Source of the DNA: an uncultured Clostridia bacterium
GTDB taxonomy: Bacteria; Bacillota; Clostridia; Christensenellales; UBA1242
Direction: 5' to 3'
Length of the DNA: 43,471 nucleotides
Assembly: GCA_947630075.1 (NCBI GenBank)
Contig: CANRGF010000003.1
Location: 1 to 43,471 of the forward strand
Below the pieces are notes generated by a model, which had not been told where the DNA came from, did no database searches, and saw only the letters and a program-made list of their open reading frames with translations. This document shows, one piece after another, positions 36,571 to 43,471 of the stretch. A program made the position numbers and the translations under genes. The first letter of the stretch is position 1. The number at the start of each line of letters is the position of its first letter.

Positions 36571-37830
36571 ATGAAAAAGTTTTGGGTGTGGGCAATATTT
36601 ATTTTAATATTTTCGTTCCCAATGGCTTTTTTCGGCTGTGCGAAGGATAAAAATTCAAACGCAAAAATTCAGCTGGATATGACCAACGCACGATGGAATT
36701 ATAATGGCGGCTTTGAAACGGAAAACGCTGGTGAAACAAATTTTGAAGTTAAGGTTTTGGGGTTGCCTAAGGAAATTGATGTAACCTATGACGGAGTAAC
36801 TTCCAATCGTTACCCTAATGAATATTGGACGATTTATCCAGAAAGTGGCAGAAGTGAATATTACACCGTTACTGCGCATTTGCAATACGATGAGGAAAAA
36901 TATGAGCTTGTGAACGACAATTTGCCCCGCACATTAAATTGGAAAATATACGACACTTTATATCTTGAAAAAGAAGCGGACAAAATTTCAAATTGTTATA
37001 GTGAATGGTATGGGAAATTTTCAAGAGAATCAATAGACTATTTGCATTTTGTGAACTATATTCCAGAGGGAGTGGACGCCACAAGTTATATGTGGGATAT
37101 GCAAGATGGATATGGTGAAAATCATGTTTATTTTGGGTTGGACGCAAACTTATTTAAAAGTTTTAAACTACCAAAAGATAGCTCATATATGTTCGCATAT
37201 CTCTATAATCTAAAAGGCATCACAGGTTTGGAATATGTGGATTTCTCTTGTGCTGAAGATCTGTCTTATATGTTTTTTAACTGTGGTGTTGAGAGTGGCG
37301 AGAAATTAGAAATCGTTTTCCCAGACAACTTGGATTTGAGCTCCGCCACAAATATGAGCCAAATGTTTTCAAATGTGGGAGGCGCGGGTGAATTAGAGCT
37401 TGAATTGGGCAACTCGTTTAACTGCTCAAATGTGAGCAACATGGCAAATATGTTTTATAACTGCGGCAAAAGCTCTAGTAAATTTCATTTAAGGCTAGGA
37501 GAAAAGTTTGACACTTCTAATGTGAAGGATATGAGCCAGATGTTTTATAATTGCGGAGCCGCTTGCCCAGACTTTTATTTAGATATGGGCTTAGGCTTTA
37601 AGGTTGACAATGTGCAAAGCATGATTCAAATGTTTTTGAATTGTGGGAAAAGCTCTAGCAATGTGAATGATTGGAAAATTGACCTTTTAGGAAAGCTTTC
37701 CGCTGAGTGTGATTTGAGTTGGGTTTTCTATAAATTCGATAAAGATTTGCGTGTTTATGTGGACGATGCTCAAACCTACGAGCTCTTATCCGCAAAAGGA
37801 TACACTCATCCACAGATAGTGATGAAATAA
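36571..37830 (+). CDS. surface lipoprotein with BspA/DUF285-like repeats
   Basis: Signal peptide with lipobox AFFG-C; about five ~30-aa repeats of (F)D.S.V..M..MF.NCG. Confidence 0.8.
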   Translation: MKKFWVWAIFILIFSFPMAFFGCAKDKNSNAKIQLDMTNARWNYNGGFETENAGETNFEVKVLGLPKEIDVTYDGVTSNRYPNEYWTIYPESGRSEYYTVTAHLQYDEEKYELVNDNLPRTLNWKIYDTLYLEKEADKISNCYSEWYGKFSRESIDYLHFVNYIPEGVDATSYMWDMQDGYGENHVYFGLDANLFKSFKLPKDSSYMFAYLYNLKGITGLEYVDFSCAEDLSYMFFNCGVESGEKLEIVFPDNLDLSSATNMSQMFSNVGGAGELELELGNSFNCSNVSNMANMFYNCGKSSSKFHLRLGEKFDTSNVKDMSQMFYNCGAACPDFYLDMGLGFKVDNVQSMIQMFLNCGKSSSNVNDWKIDLLGKLSAECDLSWVFYKFDKDLRVYVDDAQTYELLSAKGYTHPQIVMK

Positions 37831-37857
37831 AGCAGCCGGTTGGCTGCTTTTTTTTTG
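37830..37857. terminator. intrinsic terminator between convergent genes
   Basis: AAGCAGCC ggtt GGCTGCTT followed by a T-run. Confidence 0.8.
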
Positions 37858-37877
37858 CTTAAATTTATTGTGAAGGG

Positions 37878-39950
37878 CTAAACCGAATGAGTGTCAGTTT
37901 TTAGCTCTTCTTCTTGCGAGGGGGTGGCGGAACATTCTTGCTCTTGTTCCTTGCTCTCTTGTTGGATGAAAGAGGTCAATTTTTTGCTATAGCACACATA
38001 TAACCCGTGTAATGCGCGCGTGCATGCCACATAAAGATTTTGCCTATCAAGAGGGGTGTGATAGTTTGATTCGTCCGCATTTGGAATGATAACTCTATCA
38101 TACTCTAAACCTTTGCTTAAATATGTGGTGGTGATGATGTTGTTTGAAGTGAGAAGAGCGTCATCATTTTCATTTTTGATAAATGTGAATGAAGGCAAGA
38201 GTTTTGCCAATTTAAACGCTTCATCAAAACTTTTCACAACCACAGCTATCTTCTCGCCCTTGTGCTCTTCTGCAACAGCATTTGCCAATGACACAAAATC
38301 TTCATCTGTTTTGCACTTTGAAATTGATGGTTTACTCCCTTTTCGCACAAAGCGAGTGTTTGCTGTTTCCCCCACAATTTTTTGAGCAAATTCAATAATG
38401 TCGTTTGTTGAGCGATAGCTAACTGTTAAATTGTCCACTTGAACATTAGGATAAAGCCTTTGCAAAATTTCTAGGTTGGATTGCGAAGATAAGATGTTTT
38501 GATTATAATCCCCAGTGAGCGTCATCACCGCGCTTGGATATATCTTTTTGATTAGCGCAATGCTAAATGGATCGTAGTCCTGCATTTCATCAATAAATAT
38601 GTGCTTAATGAAATGATTTGGTGCAACCCCCATGAGATTGGCGTTGATATAAGCATAAATTGGTGCGTCTTCATAACCCATAGGCTTTTCTGCAAAATGC
38701 AAATTATGCTGAGCATAAAGATTGGAGAGTATCTCTTTTGCTGAAATGCTATTTTCCATCAAGGCTAACATTTTTGCCTTGCAGCGTTCAATCGCCTTTC
38801 CAGACTGTTGCTTATACCTTGCAGATAAGGCGGCAGAAATTAGCGCTTCAATGTTTTGCTTGATGTTTGGCATGGTGGGTCTATTCAAAAGATAAAGTAA
38901 AGTTTTTGGCATATCCAAACCCACTTTTTTAAACGTTTCATACACTGGAGAAACAATGTCATAATTTTTCAAAAATTCATTCACTTCATCATAGAATTTT
39001 GTGGAAAATTTTGTGTTGATTTCTGCCATGCGAACTTCGTCATAAAACTTGCTATCCACCATGGACAATTTTGTGCCACAAGTTTTAGGGGCGAGACCTG
39101 CATCTTTCAATACCTGCATTATGGTGCAAGAGCGCACATTTTCTTCGCCTAACTCTGGCAGTAAGTCGCTTATATAGGTGCTAAATAATTTGCTAGGAGA
39201 AATCACTAAAACATTTTTGCTTGTGATGTTTCCTTTGTTTGCATATAAAATGTATGAAATTCTATGCATGGCAACGGACGTTTTGCCTGAACCTGCAATG
39301 CCGTTTATGATGACGGTTTGCATAGGAGGTTTTCTTATGATTTCGTTTTGTTCCTCTTGAATGCTCTCCACTATGTTGGTCATGTGCGAAGATGTGTTTT
39401 GGCTCAAAATCTCTTGCAAGATGTTATCGTCAATCTTCGTGTTTGTGTCGATATAAGAAACGATTTTGTTTGGTTGCAGTCTAAATTGCCTTTTCAAAAG
39501 CAATTCAACGGGAATTTTGCCCACAGGTGCGGTATAATATGTGTTGCCAAGCGAGGAGAAATATAATAGCGATGCGATTGGAGAACGCCAATCTAATAGA
39601 TAGGTGGAATCGTCTTTAAAAAGATTCTTTAAGCCGATATAAAAAGTTTCAGGCTCTGAGCCCCTTTCTTTAATTTGAATTTTGGCAAAGAAAGGTTTTG
39701 GCATGATTCGCTGAAACATGTTTTTATTTTGTTGATATAAGTAATTTGAACTATCGCGATTGTAGATTTCTCCCTTCACTTCCACAAATTCAACAAGGTC
39801 TAATTTCTCAGTGGCGGCATAGTGCATGCTCTCACGAATGTCGGACTCGTTGCTGGCGATTTTCTTATCTAGTTCGTCAATTTCTTCTTTTATTTTGCCT
39901 TGAATAAATTCAAGGTGTTTTTGCTCTTCGTCAAGGATAGATTTTTCCAT
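37878..39950 (-). CDS. helD: HelD-like SF1 helicase / RNA polymerase recycling ATPase
   Basis: PFFAKI, YIG, DWRSPIASL, IV.SIQ.EQ..IIR, G.AGSGKT..AMHR, DE.QD, GD.NQ, SYRST, KGLEYD, YVACTRA. Confidence 0.8.
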   Translation of the reverse strand: MEKSILDEEQKHLEFIQGKIKEEIDELDKKIASNESDIRESMHYAATEKLDLVEFVEVKGEIYNRDSSNYLYQQNKNMFQRIMPKPFFAKIQIKERGSEPETFYIGLKNLFKDDSTYLLDWRSPIASLLYFSSLGNTYYTAPVGKIPVELLLKRQFRLQPNKIVSYIDTNTKIDDNILQEILSQNTSSHMTNIVESIQEEQNEIIRKPPMQTVIINGIAGSGKTSVAMHRISYILYANKGNITSKNVLVISPSKLFSTYISDLLPELGEENVRSCTIMQVLKDAGLAPKTCGTKLSMVDSKFYDEVRMAEINTKFSTKFYDEVNEFLKNYDIVSPVYETFKKVGLDMPKTLLYLLNRPTMPNIKQNIEALISAALSARYKQQSGKAIERCKAKMLALMENSISAKEILSNLYAQHNLHFAEKPMGYEDAPIYAYINANLMGVAPNHFIKHIFIDEMQDYDPFSIALIKKIYPSAVMTLTGDYNQNILSSQSNLEILQRLYPNVQVDNLTVSYRSTNDIIEFAQKIVGETANTRFVRKGSKPSISKCKTDEDFVSLANAVAEEHKGEKIAVVVKSFDEAFKLAKLLPSFTFIKNENDDALLTSNNIITTTYLSKGLEYDRVIIPNADESNYHTPLDRQNLYVACTRALHGLYVCYSKKLTSFIQQESKEQEQECSATPSQEEELKTDTHSV

Positions 39951-40047
39951 TTCTCCTCCAAAAGTTACTATAGTATAGCACATAAAAAGCAATAAAACAA
40001 TAGTAAAATTAAAAATTCAGTTCATTTTTTATGGTTTTTTGTTGAAT

Positions 40048-41778
40048 TTAGCTGTGCCAACACGAAAAATTTCTAAGCGAAAATGAATATAATTTGTGAT
40101 TTTCGCTTAAAATTTGCATAATTTCATCTTTAATTTTTGCTTTTTCATCTGTTGGTGCAGAAGCTGAATAAAAATAATTTAATCCTTCATTTTGCGAGGC
40201 TATTTTGCAGTTTTTTGTGAAAGTGAAATCGTTGATTTCAAACACATCTACCAAATCTAAATTTGCTTTGATGCCATTAAGGGTTTGCGTTAGGTCGTCC
40301 TCCGTTTCTTCTGGGAAATTGAAAAGCAGGCTTACGCTCGTTTTTATGCCATATTTTTTGCTTAAGCGCAAGATGTTTAAGGCGTGGTCAACTGTTATTC
40401 CTTTGTTCATTTTGTTGAGTAAATTTTGGCTAAAACTTTCTAAGCCCAAAAACATCATTTTCAACCCGTGCTCGCTAAAATGTTTTATTGTTTCTTCACT
40501 ATCGAGCGCGGGGTCGAAGCGGAATGTGCCCTTCCAATTAATTTTCACGCCACGCTCATCAAGCCCTTGCAAAATGTTTTTCACTTCGCCAGGAATTAGG
40601 CAATCATCCACAAATTCGATGTTGTGCACTCCTTGTGAAGATAAATTGCAAATTTTTTCCACAATGTTTTTGCAACTAAATGAAAAATTATCCCTATTAT
40701 GTCTATCGCAAAACAGGCATTTTTTATAATAACACTCTCGCCTTATTGACACGGGCGCAATCTTAAACACGGCAACATATTTTTCAAAATCAATTTGAGG
40801 ATATTCCGTTGTGGGTGTGCCCATTCCGTTTAGTTGAGCGATTGGCACAACGCTTGAAAAGAACGAGGTGAAAAAACTTGGATTATAGTTTGCTTCGAAT
40901 AATGTTGAGTTGTCAACTAAAATTGGCTTAATGTGGAGCACTTCATCTAAAATTTTTGCAAAAATGGTTGCGCTCATCAGTTTGTTGAAATTGTTCACAA
41001 CTAAATATATGTTTGCCCTTTTGCCGTTATACTTTTTTATTATGGCTTCAATCTGCGAAAGTTTTGAAAGATAGAATGGATATAAAATTGAAGATTTATG
41101 ATTTGAAATCGTGCTTTCAATGGCAAGAGAATTTTTGGGGTCGCATAAAGTTAACTCGCCAAAAGAGAAACGGAAAACGCCGAATTTCTTTTGCTGAATG
41201 GCTCGGCAAATTTGTGTGTAGCGATAAAAACTATCCACATCTTTTTCACTTTTTGCGTGCTTATATAATTCAATTTTTTCAGGCGAATATATTTGGCGAT
41301 TGAAGTCCAAATTAAAATCAAAATAAAAAGTGTGCTTATTTTTTGCCGCTAGCGCCTGCCAAACTTGAATGGTTGCCTCGTTGAAATATTTGGGTTTATT
41401 GAAAGGAATATCTAAAACCAAGTTTATGCAATCTTCCTCTTTTTTTGTCTTGGCAGGCTTTGCCACAGCGATGATGTCGCTTAAAGCAAACCAAGTTTTT
41501 TCGCAAGCGGGCTGATTATCCCCCTGCAAGCAAACTTTATTATTTTTATTATCAATCTCCACCACTCTATGAATGACAAAGTTTTCCACCTTATTGCCTA
41601 TGGCAACGGCTATGTCCCCCACTCTTAGCGAAAATTCATTTGAGATTTCCACATCTTGCCCGCTGAAAAAAGTGGGCACCATGCTAGAACCAAAAATCTT
41701 CACATTTTTGATTTTGCCTTGCCTAATTTTATCTATAAAAAATTTTCTTGAAAGGGTTTTATTTATCATCTTTTGCAC
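40048..41778 (-). CDS. fusion protein: N-terminal S24/S26-type peptidase plus C-terminal radical SAM domain (B12-binding-family-like)
   Basis: N-terminal GSSMVPTF...GDI...VIHRV...QGDN; C-terminal RRECYYKKCLFC, FVDD, GLESFSQ.LL.KMNKG, FNFP.ET..D. Alternative start ATG 41769. Confidence 0.8.
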   Translation of the reverse strand: MQKMINKTLSRKFFIDKIRQGKIKNVKIFGSSMVPTFFSGQDVEISNEFSLRVGDIAVAIGNKVENFVIHRVVEIDNKNNKVCLQGDNQPACEKTWFALSDIIAVAKPAKTKKEEDCINLVLDIPFNKPKYFNEATIQVWQALAAKNKHTFYFDFNLDFNRQIYSPEKIELYKHAKSEKDVDSFYRYTQICRAIQQKKFGVFRFSFGELTLCDPKNSLAIESTISNHKSSILYPFYLSKLSQIEAIIKKYNGKRANIYLVVNNFNKLMSATIFAKILDEVLHIKPILVDNSTLFEANYNPSFFTSFFSSVVPIAQLNGMGTPTTEYPQIDFEKYVAVFKIAPVSIRRECYYKKCLFCDRHNRDNFSFSCKNIVEKICNLSSQGVHNIEFVDDCLIPGEVKNILQGLDERGVKINWKGTFRFDPALDSEETIKHFSEHGLKMMFLGLESFSQNLLNKMNKGITVDHALNILRLSKKYGIKTSVSLLFNFPEETEDDLTQTLNGIKANLDLVDVFEINDFTFTKNCKIASQNEGLNYFYSASAPTDEKAKIKDEIMQILSENHKLYSFSLRNFSCWHS

Positions 41779-42829
41779 TTTTTACACTATTATAAATAAA
41801 TTTTGCCTCTCTGCAATTTTGTTCAACAGGCAAAATAACCTTGCCATTCGTGCGGTGCTCCATGTAGGTGGACACAGCGCAGTTTGAACAAAACTTTTTA
41901 TATTTGCAGTTGTAACACTCGCCAGATTTATCCTTTTCTAAATTTAGATATTGTGAAAAACTATCCCAAATTTCTTTGATTGAAAAGTCTTTAATATTTT
42001 TTTCGCTAAACTCGGCAAAATTGCACAGCCTCACTCCGCCCAAGCAGTTTATGAAAATGCTAATCCTGCCTGCACCGCAAGAATATAAGCAATCGTTATC
42101 ATTATTCATGTTTTCTCTGGTTAAGAAACTTAGCCAATTTTTTAGTTTTAGTTTTTTTATTTTGTTCATTATTGACAAATAGTCTTTGTCAGTTAGGCGG
42201 TTGGTTTGCTGACCGTTTGAAAAATCTTTGCTTGCAAGCAGGTTTAAATCAAATCTAAAAGGCACATTAAAGCCGGTGCAATAGTCATTAATCTGCTCAA
42301 ACTGTTTCCAATTCTGCTCCATGATAACTGTTTTAAGCGAAAGGGTTAGCCCAGCATCAATGAGCAGATGAATGTTTTTATTCACCACAGAAAAGCCGTC
42401 ATTAACTAAGCAAACGGACTTATAAGTAACATCGTCCACCCCATAAATGCTGATTTCAATCCTCTCGGGCGGATTTGCCTTTAAAAAGTTGATATACTTA
42501 TCTAAAAAGTAGCCGTTCGAAAAGAGGGCGATTTTCAAGCCTTTATCAAAGCAGTGCTTATAAATTTCTTTAAAATTTGGGTGAACGGTTGGCTCTCCAC
42601 CCGTGATTGTGATGGTTTCCAACCCCATTTCGCACATCTCGTCTATCATTCGCTTTGCAATATCTAGCGGAATAAACTTTATGGCGAGATTTTGATTATA
42701 ACAATGAATGCACTTAAAATTGCACGCGTTGGATATTTCAAAGGTGGCGGAGCGCAGTTTGCGATGATTGCTCAGCCGTTTATAATATTTTTTGAATAGG
42801 AAATTTTTAAGTTTTTCTTCATTTAACAT
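41759..42829 (-). CDS. radical SAM/SPASM domain peptide maturase
   Basis: CNFKCIHC, TGGEP, SNG; SPASM CGAG...G.VRLC...CYNCKYKKFCSNC...C. Start uncertain (42829 or 42838). Confidence 0.92.
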   Translation of the reverse strand: MLNEEKLKNFLFKKYYKRLSNHRKLRSATFEISNACNFKCIHCYNQNLAIKFIPLDIAKRMIDEMCEMGLETITITGGEPTVHPNFKEIYKHCFDKGLKIALFSNGYFLDKYINFLKANPPERIEISIYGVDDVTYKSVCLVNDGFSVVNKNIHLLIDAGLTLSLKTVIMEQNWKQFEQINDYCTGFNVPFRFDLNLLASKDFSNGQQTNRLTDKDYLSIMNKIKKLKLKNWLSFLTRENMNNDNDCLYSCGAGRISIFINCLGGVRLCNFAEFSEKNIKDFSIKEIWDSFSQYLNLEKDKSGECYNCKYKKFCSNCAVSTYMEHRTNGKVILPVEQNCREAKFIYNSVKSAKDDK

Positions 42830-43097
42830 AGGCAACATCCGCCTCAATTAACTGATTGATAAAATTCTTTAAATCTGCCTTGGCACGAGATTTCGAAACG
42901 TCAAAAGATTTAACCATTTCTTCTTCAATTTCTTCACTCGTTTTGCCCTGCTTTATCTTTAAAAATATGAATTTTGCCACATCTTCAAGCACTATTGCGT
43001 GCTCATAATCTATTTCATGCTTTTCATTTTCCTTAGTTAAGATAAGGCAATTTTCATATTCATCGTCCACTATGTTTGGCTTAATAAATATTTTCAA
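42819..43097 (-). CDS. PqqD-family RiPP recognition element (stand-alone RRE)
   Basis: 92 aa with L...A.FI......G.T.EEI..E....FDV....A..DL..FI.QL; SD GGAGG before TTG. Confidence 0.88.
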   Translation of the reverse strand: MKIFIKPNIVDDEYENCLILTKENEKHEIDYEHAIVLEDVAKFIFLKIKQGKTSEEIEEEMVKSFDVSKSRAKADLKNFINQLIEADVAYVK

Positions 43098-43115
43098 AAC
43101 ATCACCTCCATAAAT

Positions 43116-43150
43116 AAAAAAGTTATAATTTATGCAATTATAACTTTTTT
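43116..43150 (-). terminator. hairpin (attenuator or stabiliser) between precursor and RRE genes
   Basis: Perfect 15-bp inverted repeat AAAAAAGTTATAATT tatgc AATTATAACTTTTTT. Confidence 0.7.
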
Positions 43151-43155
43151 AAAAA

Positions 43156-43260
43156 CTAGCAATAGCAAGAGTCGTCATCACTTCCTGAAGAATTGCAGCC
43201 GCTAAAAACTGAAATCTTGCTTAGGTCAATTTTTAGCAAAACGGGAGTTGAATATTTCAT
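43156..43260 (-). CDS. putative RiPP precursor peptide, 34 aa: MKYSTPVLLKIDLSKISVFSGCNSSGSDDDSCYC
   Basis: Below the ORF-track cutoff; strong SD AAAGGAGG; YxxPxL leader motif; Cys/Ser/Asp-rich C-terminus; first gene upstream of RRE and rSAM. Confidence 0.88.
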   Translation of the reverse strand: MKYSTPVLLKIDLSKISVFSGCNSSGSDDDSCYC

Positions 43261-43304
43261 AGCGCCCTCCTTTGTAAAATTTGAAACCTATGTTTCTTAT
43301 TCTT

Positions 43305-43333
43305 ATCATAACATATAAAAATAATTTTGTCAA
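43305..43333 (-). promoter_or_regulatory. sigma-A promoter of the RiPP operon
   Basis: TTGACA-17 bp-TATGAT with extended -10 TG. Confidence 0.75.
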
Positions 43334-43471
43334 CAGATTTAAATAGAAAATTTAAAAGCAATAGATGGAGTTTCGTACGCGCGCGGGCGCACTAACCTAT
43401 TAAAAGGCAGTTTGTGGTGGAAAATCTTAACAAAAACTTAGAAATTTTCATAAAAGTGGTTAAAATCATTT

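What the first reader, a model, noticed from the sequence alone, without database searches (positions are those of the whole stretch)
43156..43260. Hidden precursor with a lasso-type YxxPxL leader and a 3-Cys, Asp-rich core
Seen: MKYSTPVLLKIDLSKISVFS-GCNSSGSDDDSCYC, missed by the ORF track. Established: YxxPxL (here YSTPVL) is the RRE-binding motif best known from lasso peptide leaders. Inference: V-F-S/G fits the small-residue (-3,-1) rule of signal peptidase I-type enzymes, predicting a 14-aa core GCNSSGSDDDSCYC. Its three Cys and its Asp/Asn/Ser residues could form thioether (ranthi/sacti-type) crosslinks, and Tyr is another possible crosslinking site. The core also looks lasso-like (Gly1, Asp8-10), but the penultimate leader Thr and a cyclase are missing.
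Basis: partly seen in the sequence, partly recalled or inferred. Interest (0 to 1): 0.8.

Follow-up and report, generated by a model that had tools for sequence, protein, structure and literature searches.

The report
Hidden precursor of radical-SAM peptide operon
The 34-codon reading frame is a real gene for a small peptide that a rare, uncharacterised set of gut-bacterial enzymes most likely cross-links and trims, and it is always followed by a gene for a protein that rescues stalled RNA polymerase.

Summary
The ORF at 43156-43260 (-) is real. It opens an operon: promoter, precursor, leaky hairpin, PqqD-type RRE, radical SAM/SPASM enzyme, a fusion of a Sec11/SipW-type signal-peptidase domain with a B12-type radical SAM domain, then a HelD-like ATPase.

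Homologous small ORFs sit directly upstream of the RRE in 4 of 4 distinct loci that have upstream DNA, and a fifth came from a protein search. Invariant residues are K2, Y3, P6, F19, G21, C22, D28, D29, S31, C32 and Y33. The third Cys (C34) is not conserved.

The RRE profile matches lasso B1 proteins best (TbiB1, E 1.2e-13), which supports the YxxPxL reading. No lasso cyclase or B2 protease is present.

Its closest studied relative is LppS, the leader peptidase of the linear polyphosphorylated peptides published in 2026. By analogy with LppS (F at -3), cleavage after G21 is more likely than after S20.

The chemistry is inferred: Cys thioether links to Asp or another residue, plus a second radical modification. 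The enzyme family is tiny, about 15-17 relatives in 5.8 billion proteins, all unnamed. I file it as a new variant of a known kind. The HelD linkage suggests, speculatively, an RNA-polymerase-directed product.

The parts
43305..43333 (-). Sigma-70-type promoter TTGACA-17-TATGAT with TG before the -10 hexamer
   Evidence: the only 11-of-12 match among 19 sites in 37700-43471. A TTGAC(A/T) -35 hexamer stands at the equivalent place in L001-L004.
43265..43273 (-). Ribosome-binding site AAAGGAGGG
   Evidence: GGAGG-type sites also precede the start codon in L002, L003 and L004.
43156..43260 (-). Precursor peptide gene, 34 aa. Leader about residues 1-21 with KYxxPxL; core about C22-C34 with the invariant pattern GC...DD.SCY.
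43115..43151 (-). AT-rich hairpin followed by a T-run between the precursor and RRE genes; candidate leaky terminator
   Evidence: dG -13.7, z -4.06. Hairpins of different sequence stand at the same place in L002 (z -3.52), L003 (z -6.78) and L004 (z -1.82). The terminator scan did not list it, because that scan needs at least 3 G-C pairs.
42819..43097 (-). Discrete PqqD-type RiPP recognition element, 92 aa, closest to lasso B1 proteins
   Evidence: Pfam PqqD 3.7e-9. Profile against PDB sequences: TbiB1 1.2e-13, TfuB1 4.4e-8.
41759..42847 (-). Radical SAM/SPASM maturase, 362 aa from a TTG start; the public form is 356 aa
   Evidence: The Cys pattern Cx12Gx4C ... Cx2Cx5Cx2C ... C was read from the translation.
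40048..41778 (-). Fusion protein, 576 aa: N-terminal Sec11/SipW-type signal-peptidase-I domain (about residues 1-110) joined to a Rossmann-like domain and a radical SAM domain of B12-dependent (class B) architecture
37878..39992 (-). HelD-like RNA-polymerase recycling ATPase, on the same strand directly after the fusion gene
   Evidence: NF041464, 390.9 bits against a cut-off of 419. B. subtilis HelD chain 6wvk_H, 1.1e-85. In this position in 4 of 5 distinct loci. Forms its own clade with 100/99 support.
37829..37850 (.). G+C-rich palindromic terminator between the convergent HelD and DUF285 genes; likely end of the operon
   Evidence: 9 pairs, 5 of them G-C, T-run. It was listed on the + strand; its use on the - strand is inferred from the symmetry of the stem.

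Best explanation
The ORF encodes the precursor of an uncharacterised ribosomally made, post-translationally modified peptide.

Proposed pathway:
1. A strong promoter drives the precursor gene. A hairpin behind it lets part of the transcripts run on into four more genes.
2. The leader (KYxxPxL/V ...) docks as a strand on the discrete lasso-B1-like RRE.
3. The RRE presents the peptide to the radical SAM/SPASM enzyme. This enzyme most likely links the two invariant cysteines (C22, C32) by thioether bonds to carbon atoms of other core residues. The invariant Asp28/Asp29, Ser31 or Tyr33 are the candidates.
4. The peptide also goes to the bifunctional 576-aa protein. Its B12-type radical SAM domain adds a second radical modification; C-methylation is the usual job of this architecture.
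5. The anchor-less Sec11/SipW-type Ser/His/Asp peptidase domain of the same protein removes the leader, most likely between G21 and C22, with F19 at -3.
6. The product would be a very acidic peptide of 13-20 residues.

Shown: the gene, its conservation, the operon layout and the domain identities. Inferred: RRE binding, the cleavage site, every chemical step, and any role of the HelD gene.
For: Gene reality: see the observation check.

RRE:
- Pfam PqqD 3.7e-9.
- The profile of 22 RREs hits TbiB1 at 1.2e-13, TfuB1 at 4.4e-8, and two further lasso or PqqD-family chaperones (9x8z, 9x90). PqqD itself scores only 0.075.
- Leader residues K2, Y3 and P6 are invariant in 5 of 5.
- Complex prediction of RRE with precursor gave 'weak support'. 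The score was 0.53 in 3 of 3 runs; the best of 3 controls was 0.01. The mark was reached by 58 of 80 solved complexes and 2 of 110 mismatched pairs. At 0.60 or under it was reached by only 7 of those 80 and by both mismatches that passed. The runs agree in at least 92% of contacts; partner pLDDT is at least 57. My own alignments were used. Similar lasso B1-leader complexes are solved, so the pass may come from memory.

SPASM enzyme:
- Radical_SAM 1.4e-20 and SPASM 3.3e-4.
- Weak matches across most of the length to MftC, AlbA, StsB, SkfB and PapB.
- Closest solved sequence is the sactisynthase SkfB, 1.1e-9.

Fusion protein:
- TIGR02228 (archaeal signal peptidase I) 9.9e-9 on residues 20-105, and PhpK-type radical SAM 1.1e-19.
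- In the 16-sequence alignment, GSSMxP(T), VHR and GDN are at least 90% conserved, and ECYYKxCxFCDRH is conserved.
- The N-terminal profile hits SEC11A at 2.4e-6 and SEC11C at 1.3e-5, aligned over SM-P, VHRV and GDN.
- The full model has pLDDT 87.9. Foldseek matches are MiaB, MgmA, OxsB, TsrM, AprD4, CysS and TokK, at 1.3e-11 to 1e-6.

Precedent: LppS, a SipW-like peptidase with catalytic S29, H68 and D93, cuts a YxxP-bearing leader only when the RRE LppB is present, and needs F-3, E-2 and T-1 (PMC13381572, sections 6 and 11, read). Here the equivalent residues are S29, H67 and D84 in the numbering of the 573-aa form, and F19 and G21 are invariant in the peptide.

Co-occurrence: the SPASM enzyme has 17 close relatives (48-66% identity) and then a gap to 34% or less. 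The fusion protein has 15 full-length relatives.
Against: - No experiment or RNA data: no RNA run holds the stretch.
- The window protein's SPASM score is 21.3 bits, just under Pfam's cut-off of 21.5. No curated NCBIfam maturase cut-off is reached: PapB 40 against 340, AlbA 71 against 850, MftC 92 against 265.
- The isolated peptidase-domain model (pLDDT 79) gave no Foldseek match at E <= 0.001. LexA, SEC11C and SpsB appear only at 0.009-0.03, mixed with Tudor/SH3-like folds.
- The complex prediction is only 'weak support'.
- No exporter and no classical immunity gene is conserved in the unit. That is unusual for a secreted bacteriocin.
- B12 binding cannot be read from the sequence. The radical SAM motif is CX4CX2C, not the canonical CX3CX2C.
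- Only 5 distinct precursors are known, and they come from related small-genome gut Clostridia. MnmG identity to the window's genome is 75% for the L002 genome and 59% for the L004 genome.
Confidence: 0.72

Rival explanations
1. It is a lasso peptide precursor. The N-terminal amine of G21 or C22 would be joined to Asp28-30 to give a 7-9-membered macrolactam ring, made by an unrecognised cyclase.
For: - A YxxPxL-type leader, and an RRE closest to lasso B1 proteins.
- Gly or Cys at the putative position 1, and invariant Asp at core positions 7-9.
Against: - The five-gene unit holds no Asn-synthetase-like cyclase and no B2 protease.
- In the own genome (88% complete), PF13471 gives 0 matches. PF00733 gives one 23-bit partial match, covering model positions 17-81 of 354, on another contig.
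- There is no Thr at leader position -2 in 0 of 5 sequences.
- In 3 of 5 sequences only 3-5 residues follow the Asp block. From recalled knowledge, that is too short for a threaded tail.
Confidence: 0.04
2. It is a member of the linear polyphosphorylated peptide (LPP) family: a linear peptide phosphorylated on Ser and trimmed by the SpI-like peptidase.
For: - It shares the SpI-like peptidase, the discrete RRE and the YxxP leader (PMC13381572, section 6).
- The core is rich in Ser.
Against: - None of the four cassette proteins matches an HprK-like kinase, an NTP transferase or an MsbA-like exporter. The paper names these as conserved LPP core genes (section 6).
- Two radical SAM enzymes stand in their place.
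- The LPP motif HQxIxFET is absent.
- The RRE is closer to TbiB1 (1.2e-13) than to 9x8z_B (3.1e-6), the chain I take, unverified, to be from that study.
Confidence: 0.05
3. The peptide is the precursor of an intracellular peptide-derived cofactor or regulator, in the manner of PQQ or mycofactocin. On this reading it is not a secreted antimicrobial.
For: - No exporter is conserved.
- The peptidase domain has no membrane anchor: the N-terminus is an amphipathic helix, residues 4-16.
- MftC is the second-best NCBIfam match of the SPASM enzyme, 4.8e-26.
- The Cys-Tyr pair near the C-terminus is invariant.
- The only conserved partner is HelD, a cytoplasmic protein that acts on RNA polymerase.
Against: - The distribution is sporadic: the fusion family is found in 1 of 401 genomes of the order, and that one is the window's own genome. 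This fits an accessory trait better than a cofactor.
- No partner oxidoreductase is present.
- Tyr33 is C-terminal in only 2 of 5 sequences, so MftC-like decarboxylation of a terminal Tyr does not fit.
- The strong promoter with an attenuator hairpin is the usual layout of bacteriocin-like precursors (recalled).
Confidence: 0.15
4. The ORF is a chance open frame or a leader-type regulatory ORF, with no peptide product of its own.
For: It is short. Its motif alone is not rare: 6 of 3842 small ORFs of the genome carry it.
Against: - Eleven residues, most of them in the C-terminal half, are invariant across 5 sequences.
- Synonymous differences are in excess.
- A consensus RBS is present.
- It keeps a fixed position in front of an RRE in 4 of 4 loci.
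Confidence: 0.03

Closest known systems
Linear polyphosphorylated peptides (LPP): LppA precursor, LppB RRE, LppS SpI-like leader peptidase of Paenibacillus alginolyticus (Popov et al., Nat Commun 2026, PMC13381572; abstract, sections 6, 9 and 11 and term searches read; supplements not seen)
   Same: - A YxxP-type leader, bound by a discrete lasso-like RRE.
- An anchor-less archaeal/ER-type signal peptidase I with a Ser/His/Asp set at almost the same positions: S29/H68/D93 in LppS, S29/H67/D84 here.
- An aromatic residue (F) three positions before a small residue at the end of the leader.
- No lasso cyclase.
   Different: - Here the peptidase is fused to a B12-type radical SAM domain.
- A radical SAM/SPASM enzyme replaces the HprK-like kinase and NTP transferase.
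- There is no MsbA-like exporter.
- The leader lacks HQxIxFET, and Y-to-F spacing is 16 residues instead of 13.
- The core is a short Cys/Asp-rich peptide.
- The words radical, rSAM, SPASM and helicase do not occur in the paper's main text.
Lasso peptide leader / B1 recognition module (TbiA-TbiB1, PDB 5v1u/5v1v; TfuB1, 6jx3)
   Same: The RRE profile matches TbiB1 at 1.2e-13 over nearly the whole length. The leader carries Y-x-x-P-x-L/V near its N-terminus.
   Different: - No B2 cysteine protease and no macrolactam synthetase.
- No Thr at -2.
- The RRE carries a 5-residue insertion relative to TbiB1 (alignment).
Thioether peptides made by radical SAM/SPASM enzymes: sactipeptides (AlbA, SkfB, StsB with its separate RRE StsC) and ranthipeptides (PapB, Cys to Asp beta-carbon)
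   Same: - A radical SAM enzyme with a full 7-Cys SPASM pattern.
- A Cys-bearing core with invariant Asp.
- A discrete RRE, as in the StsB/StsC system (passages of PMC10288494 seen).
- SkfB is the closest solved sequence.
   Different: - All curated family scores lie far below their cut-offs.
- The nearest relatives outside the 17-member subfamily are at most 34% identical.
- There is a second radical SAM domain and a serine leader peptidase.
- The PapB chemistry and the CX3D motif are recalled, not tested here.
HelD / HelR RNA-polymerase recycling ATPases that protect RNA polymerase from rifamycins (search listing and abstracts of 10.1101/2021.05.10.443488, PMC10719064 and PMC12802891 seen)
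   Same: The gene after the cassette is a class-I HelD-like protein: 1.1e-85 to the B. subtilis HelD chain 6wvk_H.
   Different: No HelD has been reported inside a RiPP cluster in the papers I could search ('HelD' also matches the word 'held', so these searches are noisy). Its role here is unknown.

Membership tests
Lasso peptides | Leader with a Y/WxxPx(L/V/I/F/A) motif, recognised by a PqqD-like B1 RRE | tested here: met
   KYxxPx[LV] in 5 of 5 precursors. The RRE profile hits TbiB1 at 1.2e-13.
Lasso peptides | ATP-dependent macrolactam synthetase (Asn-synthetase-like C protein) in the cluster | tested here: not met
   None among the cassette proteins. In the own genome (88% complete) there is only one 23-bit partial PF00733 match, on contig C96.
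Lasso peptides | Transglutaminase-like B2 leader protease, and Thr at leader position -2 | tested here: not met
   PF13471: 0 matches in the own genome. No Thr at -2 under either candidate cleavage site in 5 of 5 sequences.
Linear polyphosphorylated peptides (LPP) | SipW-like SpI leader peptidase with Ser/His/Asp, working with a discrete RRE | tested here: met
   By sequence only. The GSSM, VHR and GDN boxes are at least 90% conserved in 16 sequences. SEC11A hit at 2.4e-6. Here the peptidase is a domain of a fusion protein.
Linear polyphosphorylated peptides (LPP) | HprK-like kinase, NTP transferase and MsbA-like transporter as conserved core genes | tested here: not met
   None of them among the genes of the unit, nor in the flanks of L001-L004 that were scanned (10 proteins). 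The whole genome was not searched for them.
Sactipeptides / ranthipeptides | Radical SAM maturase with a SPASM domain (two auxiliary clusters) and a Cys-containing core | tested here: met
   Radical_SAM 1.4e-20. SPASM scores 21.3 bits against a cut-off of 21.5 in the window protein, and PF13186 is precomputed on 9 of its 16 close relatives listed. The 7-Cys pattern was read. Two Cys are invariant.
Sactipeptides / ranthipeptides | Membership of a curated maturase family (AlbA, SkfB, StsB, PapB) | tested here: not met
   Scores against cut-offs: 71.3/850, 45.7/300, 66.8/625 and 40.1/340 bits.
Sactipeptides / ranthipeptides | Cys sulfur to alpha-, beta- or gamma-carbon thioether in the product | not testable with these tools
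   Needs mass spectrometry or NMR of the modified peptide.
Mycofactocin-type systems | MftC-family maturase, and a precursor ending in Val-Tyr | tested here: not met
   TIGR03962 scores 91.7 bits against a cut-off of 265. Tyr33 follows Cys and is C-terminal in only 2 of 5 sequences.
B12-dependent (class B) radical SAM enzymes | N-terminal Rossmann-like cobalamin domain followed by a radical SAM barrel | tested here: inconclusive
   The architecture matches MgmA, OxsB, TsrM, CysS and TokK. It also matches MiaB and AprD4, which from recalled knowledge do not use B12. No Pfam B12-binding hit. The motif is CX4CX2C.

The most novel reading that the evidence does not exclude
The five-gene unit makes a small, highly acidic, cross-linked peptide that acts on bacterial RNA polymerase. 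The co-inherited HelD-like ATPase would be the producer's protection or partner: it would clear the peptide or the stalled enzyme from RNA polymerase, as HelR and HelD do for rifamycins. That would be the first RiPP cluster with a target-protection motor as its immunity gene. It would also be a second, lasso-independent route from a lasso-type leader/RRE module to an RNA-polymerase-directed peptide.
Probability: 0.15. Interest if true: 0.85.

Novelty: new variant of a known kind. Interest (0 to 1): 0.62.

Why it matters
- It shows that the lasso-type leader/RRE module and the signal-peptidase-like leader protease, first described in print in 2026 (PMC13381572), are also wired to radical SAM chemistry. 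Here the protease is physically fused to a radical SAM enzyme. That gives a compact four-gene system that is easy to reconstitute.
- The family is very rare: about 15-17 enzyme relatives in 5.8 billion proteins. It is confined, as far as seen, to roughly 1-Mb genomes of uncultured gut Clostridia. Such reduced genomes seldom keep natural-product genes without a use.
- The constant HelD neighbour gives a testable lead to the product's target.

Tried and rejected
- Expression: no RNA holder was listed for window 37800-43471. All 7 runs are DNA contigs of gut metagenomes from 2 studies. No reads were laid.
- Second copies: tblastn of the peptide against the own genome found only itself. Regex scans of all loci and the genome found one precursor per locus.
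- Curated precursor families: the precursor has no Pfam or NCBIfam match at E <= 0.01.
The same family's alignment with the natural 41-aa member first found only 4 proteins.
- More loci: the metagenome scan added only a duplicate of L004. The genome scan gave 5 loci.
- Own order: 0 of 400 other genomes carry the fusion family.
- Peptidase domain folded alone: no Foldseek hit at E <= 0.001.
- ESM Atlas: only generic B12-type radical SAM clusters at score 0.90.
- Literature: no paper with a signal peptidase-radical SAM fusion among the 7 listed of 10 hits. Nothing on HelD in RiPP clusters (both noisy; no 'biosynthetic', 'lasso' or 'operon' in PMC8655204).
- HelD co-transfer: I first read the HelD linkage as proof of horizontal co-transfer. 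The MnmG identities show the hosts are related, so common descent is not excluded and I dropped that claim.
- Earlier scan notes by place or sequence: nothing found.
Full report
**1. The observation**

The minus strand of 43156-43260 holds an ATG-started 34-codon ORF, MKYSTPVLLKIDLSKISVFSGCNSSGSDDDSCYC. The window is a whole contig (C3) of a 0.98-Mb, 117-contig genome rated 88% complete. Only 211 bases lie upstream of the ORF.

The signals around the ORF fit a real gene:
- AAAGGAGGG ends 5 nt before the ATG.
- TTGACA-17-TATGAT at 43333..43305 is the single 11-of-12 promoter match among 19 sites found in 37700-43471. The total number of sites is no more than in shuffles: 19 against a mean of 17.6.
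- A 16-bp AT-rich hairpin plus T-run follows the stop codon (dG -13.7, z -4.06).

**2. The surroundings**

On the same strand follow these genes:
- A 92-aa PqqD-family protein (Pfam 3.7e-9).
- A 362-aa radical SAM/SPASM protein.
- A 576-aa protein with a weak S24/S26 peptidase match at the N-terminus and a radical SAM domain.
- A 704-aa HelD-like protein.

Successive genes overlap or lie close together. The scan found no terminator-like site on the minus strand between the fusion gene and HelD (the only minus-strand site lies inside HelD). A G+C-rich palindromic terminator stands after HelD at 37829-37850.

**3. Relatives**

- The 576-aa protein has only 15 full-length relatives (38-50% identity) plus one 402-aa form among 5.8 billion proteins. 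None has a name.
- The SPASM enzyme has 17 close relatives (48-66% identity), followed by a gap to 34% or less.
- The RRE has 19 hits at E <= 0.001 among 1.84 billion representatives.
- Scans of species genomes and metagenomes gave six loci. L001 is 95% identical in the fusion protein. L002 and L003 are Clostridia MAGs. L004 is named Christensenella sp. UBA5893, and L006 is the same sequence. L005 (Ca. Onthoplasma, Christensenellales) is cut inside the fusion gene.
- In all 4 distinct loci with upstream DNA, a small ORF of the same family lies directly before the RRE gene. A profile search added P0027.

The five distinct peptides share K2, Y3, P6, F19, G21, C22, D28, D29, S31, C32 and Y33. After Y33 the sequence is C, nothing, nothing, YGDDGED or YETDDD.

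The frame is under selection:
- Window against L003: 14 identical codons, 11 synonymous and 7 non-synonymous differences in 32 codons.
- Window against L002: 12, 10 and 10.
- No other frame is open in all loci.

Each locus also keeps a TTGAC(A/T) promoter, a GGAGG site, and a hairpin of different sequence at the same place (z -3.52, -6.78 and -1.82 for L002-L004). By itself the motif Y..P.[LV] occurs in 6 of 3842 small ORFs of the genome. The case rests on context and conservation.

**4. The leader and its reader**

A profile of 22 RREs (A4) matches PDB sequences in this order:
- TbiB1, 1.2e-13.
- TfuB1, 4.4e-8.
- 9x8z_B (labelled 'PqqD family protein'), 3.1e-6.
- 9x90_B (labelled 'lasso peptide biosynthesis PqqD family chaperone'), 4.9e-6.
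- PqqD proper, only 0.075.

NCBIfam likewise ranks lasso PqqD chaperones first, far below their cut-offs. The RRE is therefore of the lasso B1 kind. That kind is described as recognising [Y/W]xxPx[L/V/I/F/A] (PMC13381572, section 6).

The complex prediction of RRE and precursor returned 'weak support':
- Score 0.53 in three runs; best of three controls 0.01.
- At least 92% of contacts shared between runs; partner pLDDT at least 57.
- The mark was reached by 58 of 80 solved complexes and 2 of 110 mismatches. At 0.60 or under it was reached by only 7 of the 80 and by both passing mismatches.
- My own alignments were used. Similar B1-leader complexes are solved, so the pass may reflect memory.

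I take RRE binding through KYxxPxL/V as likely (about 0.75) but not shown.

**5. The peptidase**

The first roughly 110 residues of the fusion protein carry GSSMxP(T), VGDIVV, VHR and GDN. GSSM, H and GDN are at least 90% conserved in 16 sequences. Supporting matches:
- TIGR02228 (archaeal signal peptidase I), 9.9e-9.
- A four-sequence profile hits human SEC11A (2.4e-6), SEC11C (1.3e-5) and S. aureus SpsB (0.0026), aligned over exactly these boxes.

The full-length model (pLDDT 87.9) starts with a helix (residues 4-16) and a beta-rich domain. Folded alone (pLDDT 79), the domain gave no Foldseek hit at E <= 0.001. LexA, SEC11C (TM 0.55) and SpsB appear at 0.009-0.03 among unrelated small beta folds.

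A lead from earlier notes of this scan took me to Popov et al. 2026 (PMC13381572; I read the abstract and sections 6, 9 and 11, and searched terms). The paper reports:
- SipW-like 'SpI' peptidases next to discrete RREs define the LPP family.
- LppS (catalytic S29, H68, D93) cuts the leader only with the RRE LppB.
- The leader motif is YxxPxVLxHQxIxFET. F-3 enters a hydrophobic cleft, and mutations of F-3, E-2 and T-1 reduce cleavage.

The residues here (S29, H67, D84 in the 573-aa numbering) and the N-terminal helix match that description. In the peptide, F19 and G21 are invariant, while residue 20 is S, S, C, I or C. So F(-3)-x-G(-1)|C22 fits the precedent and the small-residue rule at -1. 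My estimate is 0.45 for G21|C22, 0.25 for residue 20|G21, and the rest for other sites or another protease.

The paper's main text never mentions radical SAM enzymes.

**6. The two radical SAM enzymes**

SPASM protein:
- It has the Cys pattern Cx12Gx4C ... Cx2Cx5Cx2C ... C (read), so two auxiliary clusters are expected.
- Its best curated matches are AhbD, MftC, NirJ2 and GeoRSP, then AlbA, StsB, SkfB and PapB. All are far under their cut-offs.
- The closest solved sequence is the sactisynthase SkfB, 1.1e-9.

Fusion protein, C-terminal part:
- It matches PhpK-, ArsL- and MgmA-type and RiPP C-methyltransferase models, again below their cut-offs.
- It superposes on MiaB, MgmA, OxsB, TsrM, AprD4, CysS and TokK.
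- The middle domain has a single invariant Cys, C209. A MiaB-like auxiliary cluster there is unlikely; that inference is mine.
- Whether cobalamin is bound cannot be told.
- The cluster motif is CX4CX2C (ECYYKxCxFC), invariant in 16 sequences.

From recalled knowledge, SPASM enzymes such as PapB and QhpD make Cys-to-Asp thioethers. Given the two invariant Cys and two invariant Asp, I think one or two thioethers are the most likely modification (about 0.5). A methylation or other radical step by the second enzyme would follow. None of this is shown.

**7. Not a lasso peptide, not an LPP**

The unit has no cyclase, no B2 protease, no kinase, no NTP transferase and no exporter. In the own genome PF13471 gives 0 matches, and PF00733 gives one 23-bit partial match elsewhere. 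Flanking genes differ between loci:
- L001: Sm_multidrug_ex and GtrA.
- L002: DUF1848 and GmrSD.
- L003: a Crp-type regulator.
- L004: a metallo-beta-lactamase-fold protein.
- L005: Glf.

**8. The HelD neighbour**

A HelD-like gene follows the fusion gene on the same strand in 4 of 5 distinct loci. In L004 it overlaps the fusion gene's end by 10 nt. L005 has Glf instead. It is a class-I HelD: 1.1e-85 to the B. subtilis chain 6wvk_H, and NF041464 at 391 bits against a cut-off of 419.

Distribution:
- The same-genus genome G362 (98% complete) has neither the cassette nor a HelD match with this query.
- HelD occurs in 75 of 401 genomes of the order, and in 16 of 20 genomes of the family. Those of the family's genus g2 are 31-35% identical to the window's.
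- In a tree of 10 HelDs, the five cassette-linked ones lie on one side of a branch with 100/99 support. The rows were 5 cassette-linked, 3 of genus g2, G186 and G011. Further matches were not included.

The hosts are related small genomes. MnmG identity to the window is 80% for G362, 75% for the L002 genome, 59% for the L004 genome and 56% for a g2 genome. Common descent of the linkage therefore cannot be excluded.

HelR and HelD proteins protect RNA polymerase from rifamycins (abstracts seen). That suggests, as the boldest reading, that the product acts on RNA polymerase and HelD is its antidote or partner. I give this 0.15.

**9. Verdict**

The lasso-type leader and a signal-peptidase-type cut both have real counterparts in the operon. 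The cut site and the '3-Cys' description need revision, and the chemistry is open.
- The system is a new variant of a known kind: an RRE-guided radical SAM RiPP with an SpI-like leader peptidase.
- It is notable for the peptidase-radical SAM fusion, its rarity, its home in reduced gut genomes, and the HelD link.

Noticed in passing
window 37878-39992 (-); L001 9778-11904, L002 9813-11900, L003 5956-8055, L004 9710-11749: A HelD-like RNA-polymerase recycling ATPase follows the RiPP cassette in 4 of 5 distinct loci. These HelDs form a clade apart from the HelDs of the host's own family (100/99 support). The same-genus genome without the cassette gave no HelD match.
   Followed up: partly
window 40048-41778 (-), residues 345-357: The radical SAM cluster motif of the fusion protein is CX4CX2C (ECYYKxCxFCDRH), invariant in 16 sequences. 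The canonical motif is CX3CX2C.
   Followed up: no
P0016: One relative of the fusion protein is only 402 aa long and lacks the peptidase domain. It lies on a 257.8-kb contig. It may be a split or truncated form; its contig could not be fetched.
   Followed up: no
window 36571-37830 (+): A DUF285 / PARCEL-repeat lipoprotein (Pfam 1e-25) of the kind described in Mycoplasma sits next to HelD in this roughly 1-Mb Clostridia genome. It recurs in L001 (11933-13192).
   Followed up: no
whole genome G000 and its relatives: The host belongs to a family of gut Clostridia with genomes of only 0.8-1.2 Mb that are rated 98-100% complete. The cassette is found in 1 of 401 sampled genomes of the order, and that one is the window's own genome.
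   Followed up: partly
L002 12634-13833 (-): A GmrSD-type restriction endonuclease N-terminal domain protein (4.1e-24) lies downstream of the HelD gene in this locus only.
   Followed up: no
L003 2643-2750 and P0027: Two of the five precursors carry an extra Cys at the variable position between F19 and G21. That is leader position -2 if cleavage follows G21.
   Followed up: no
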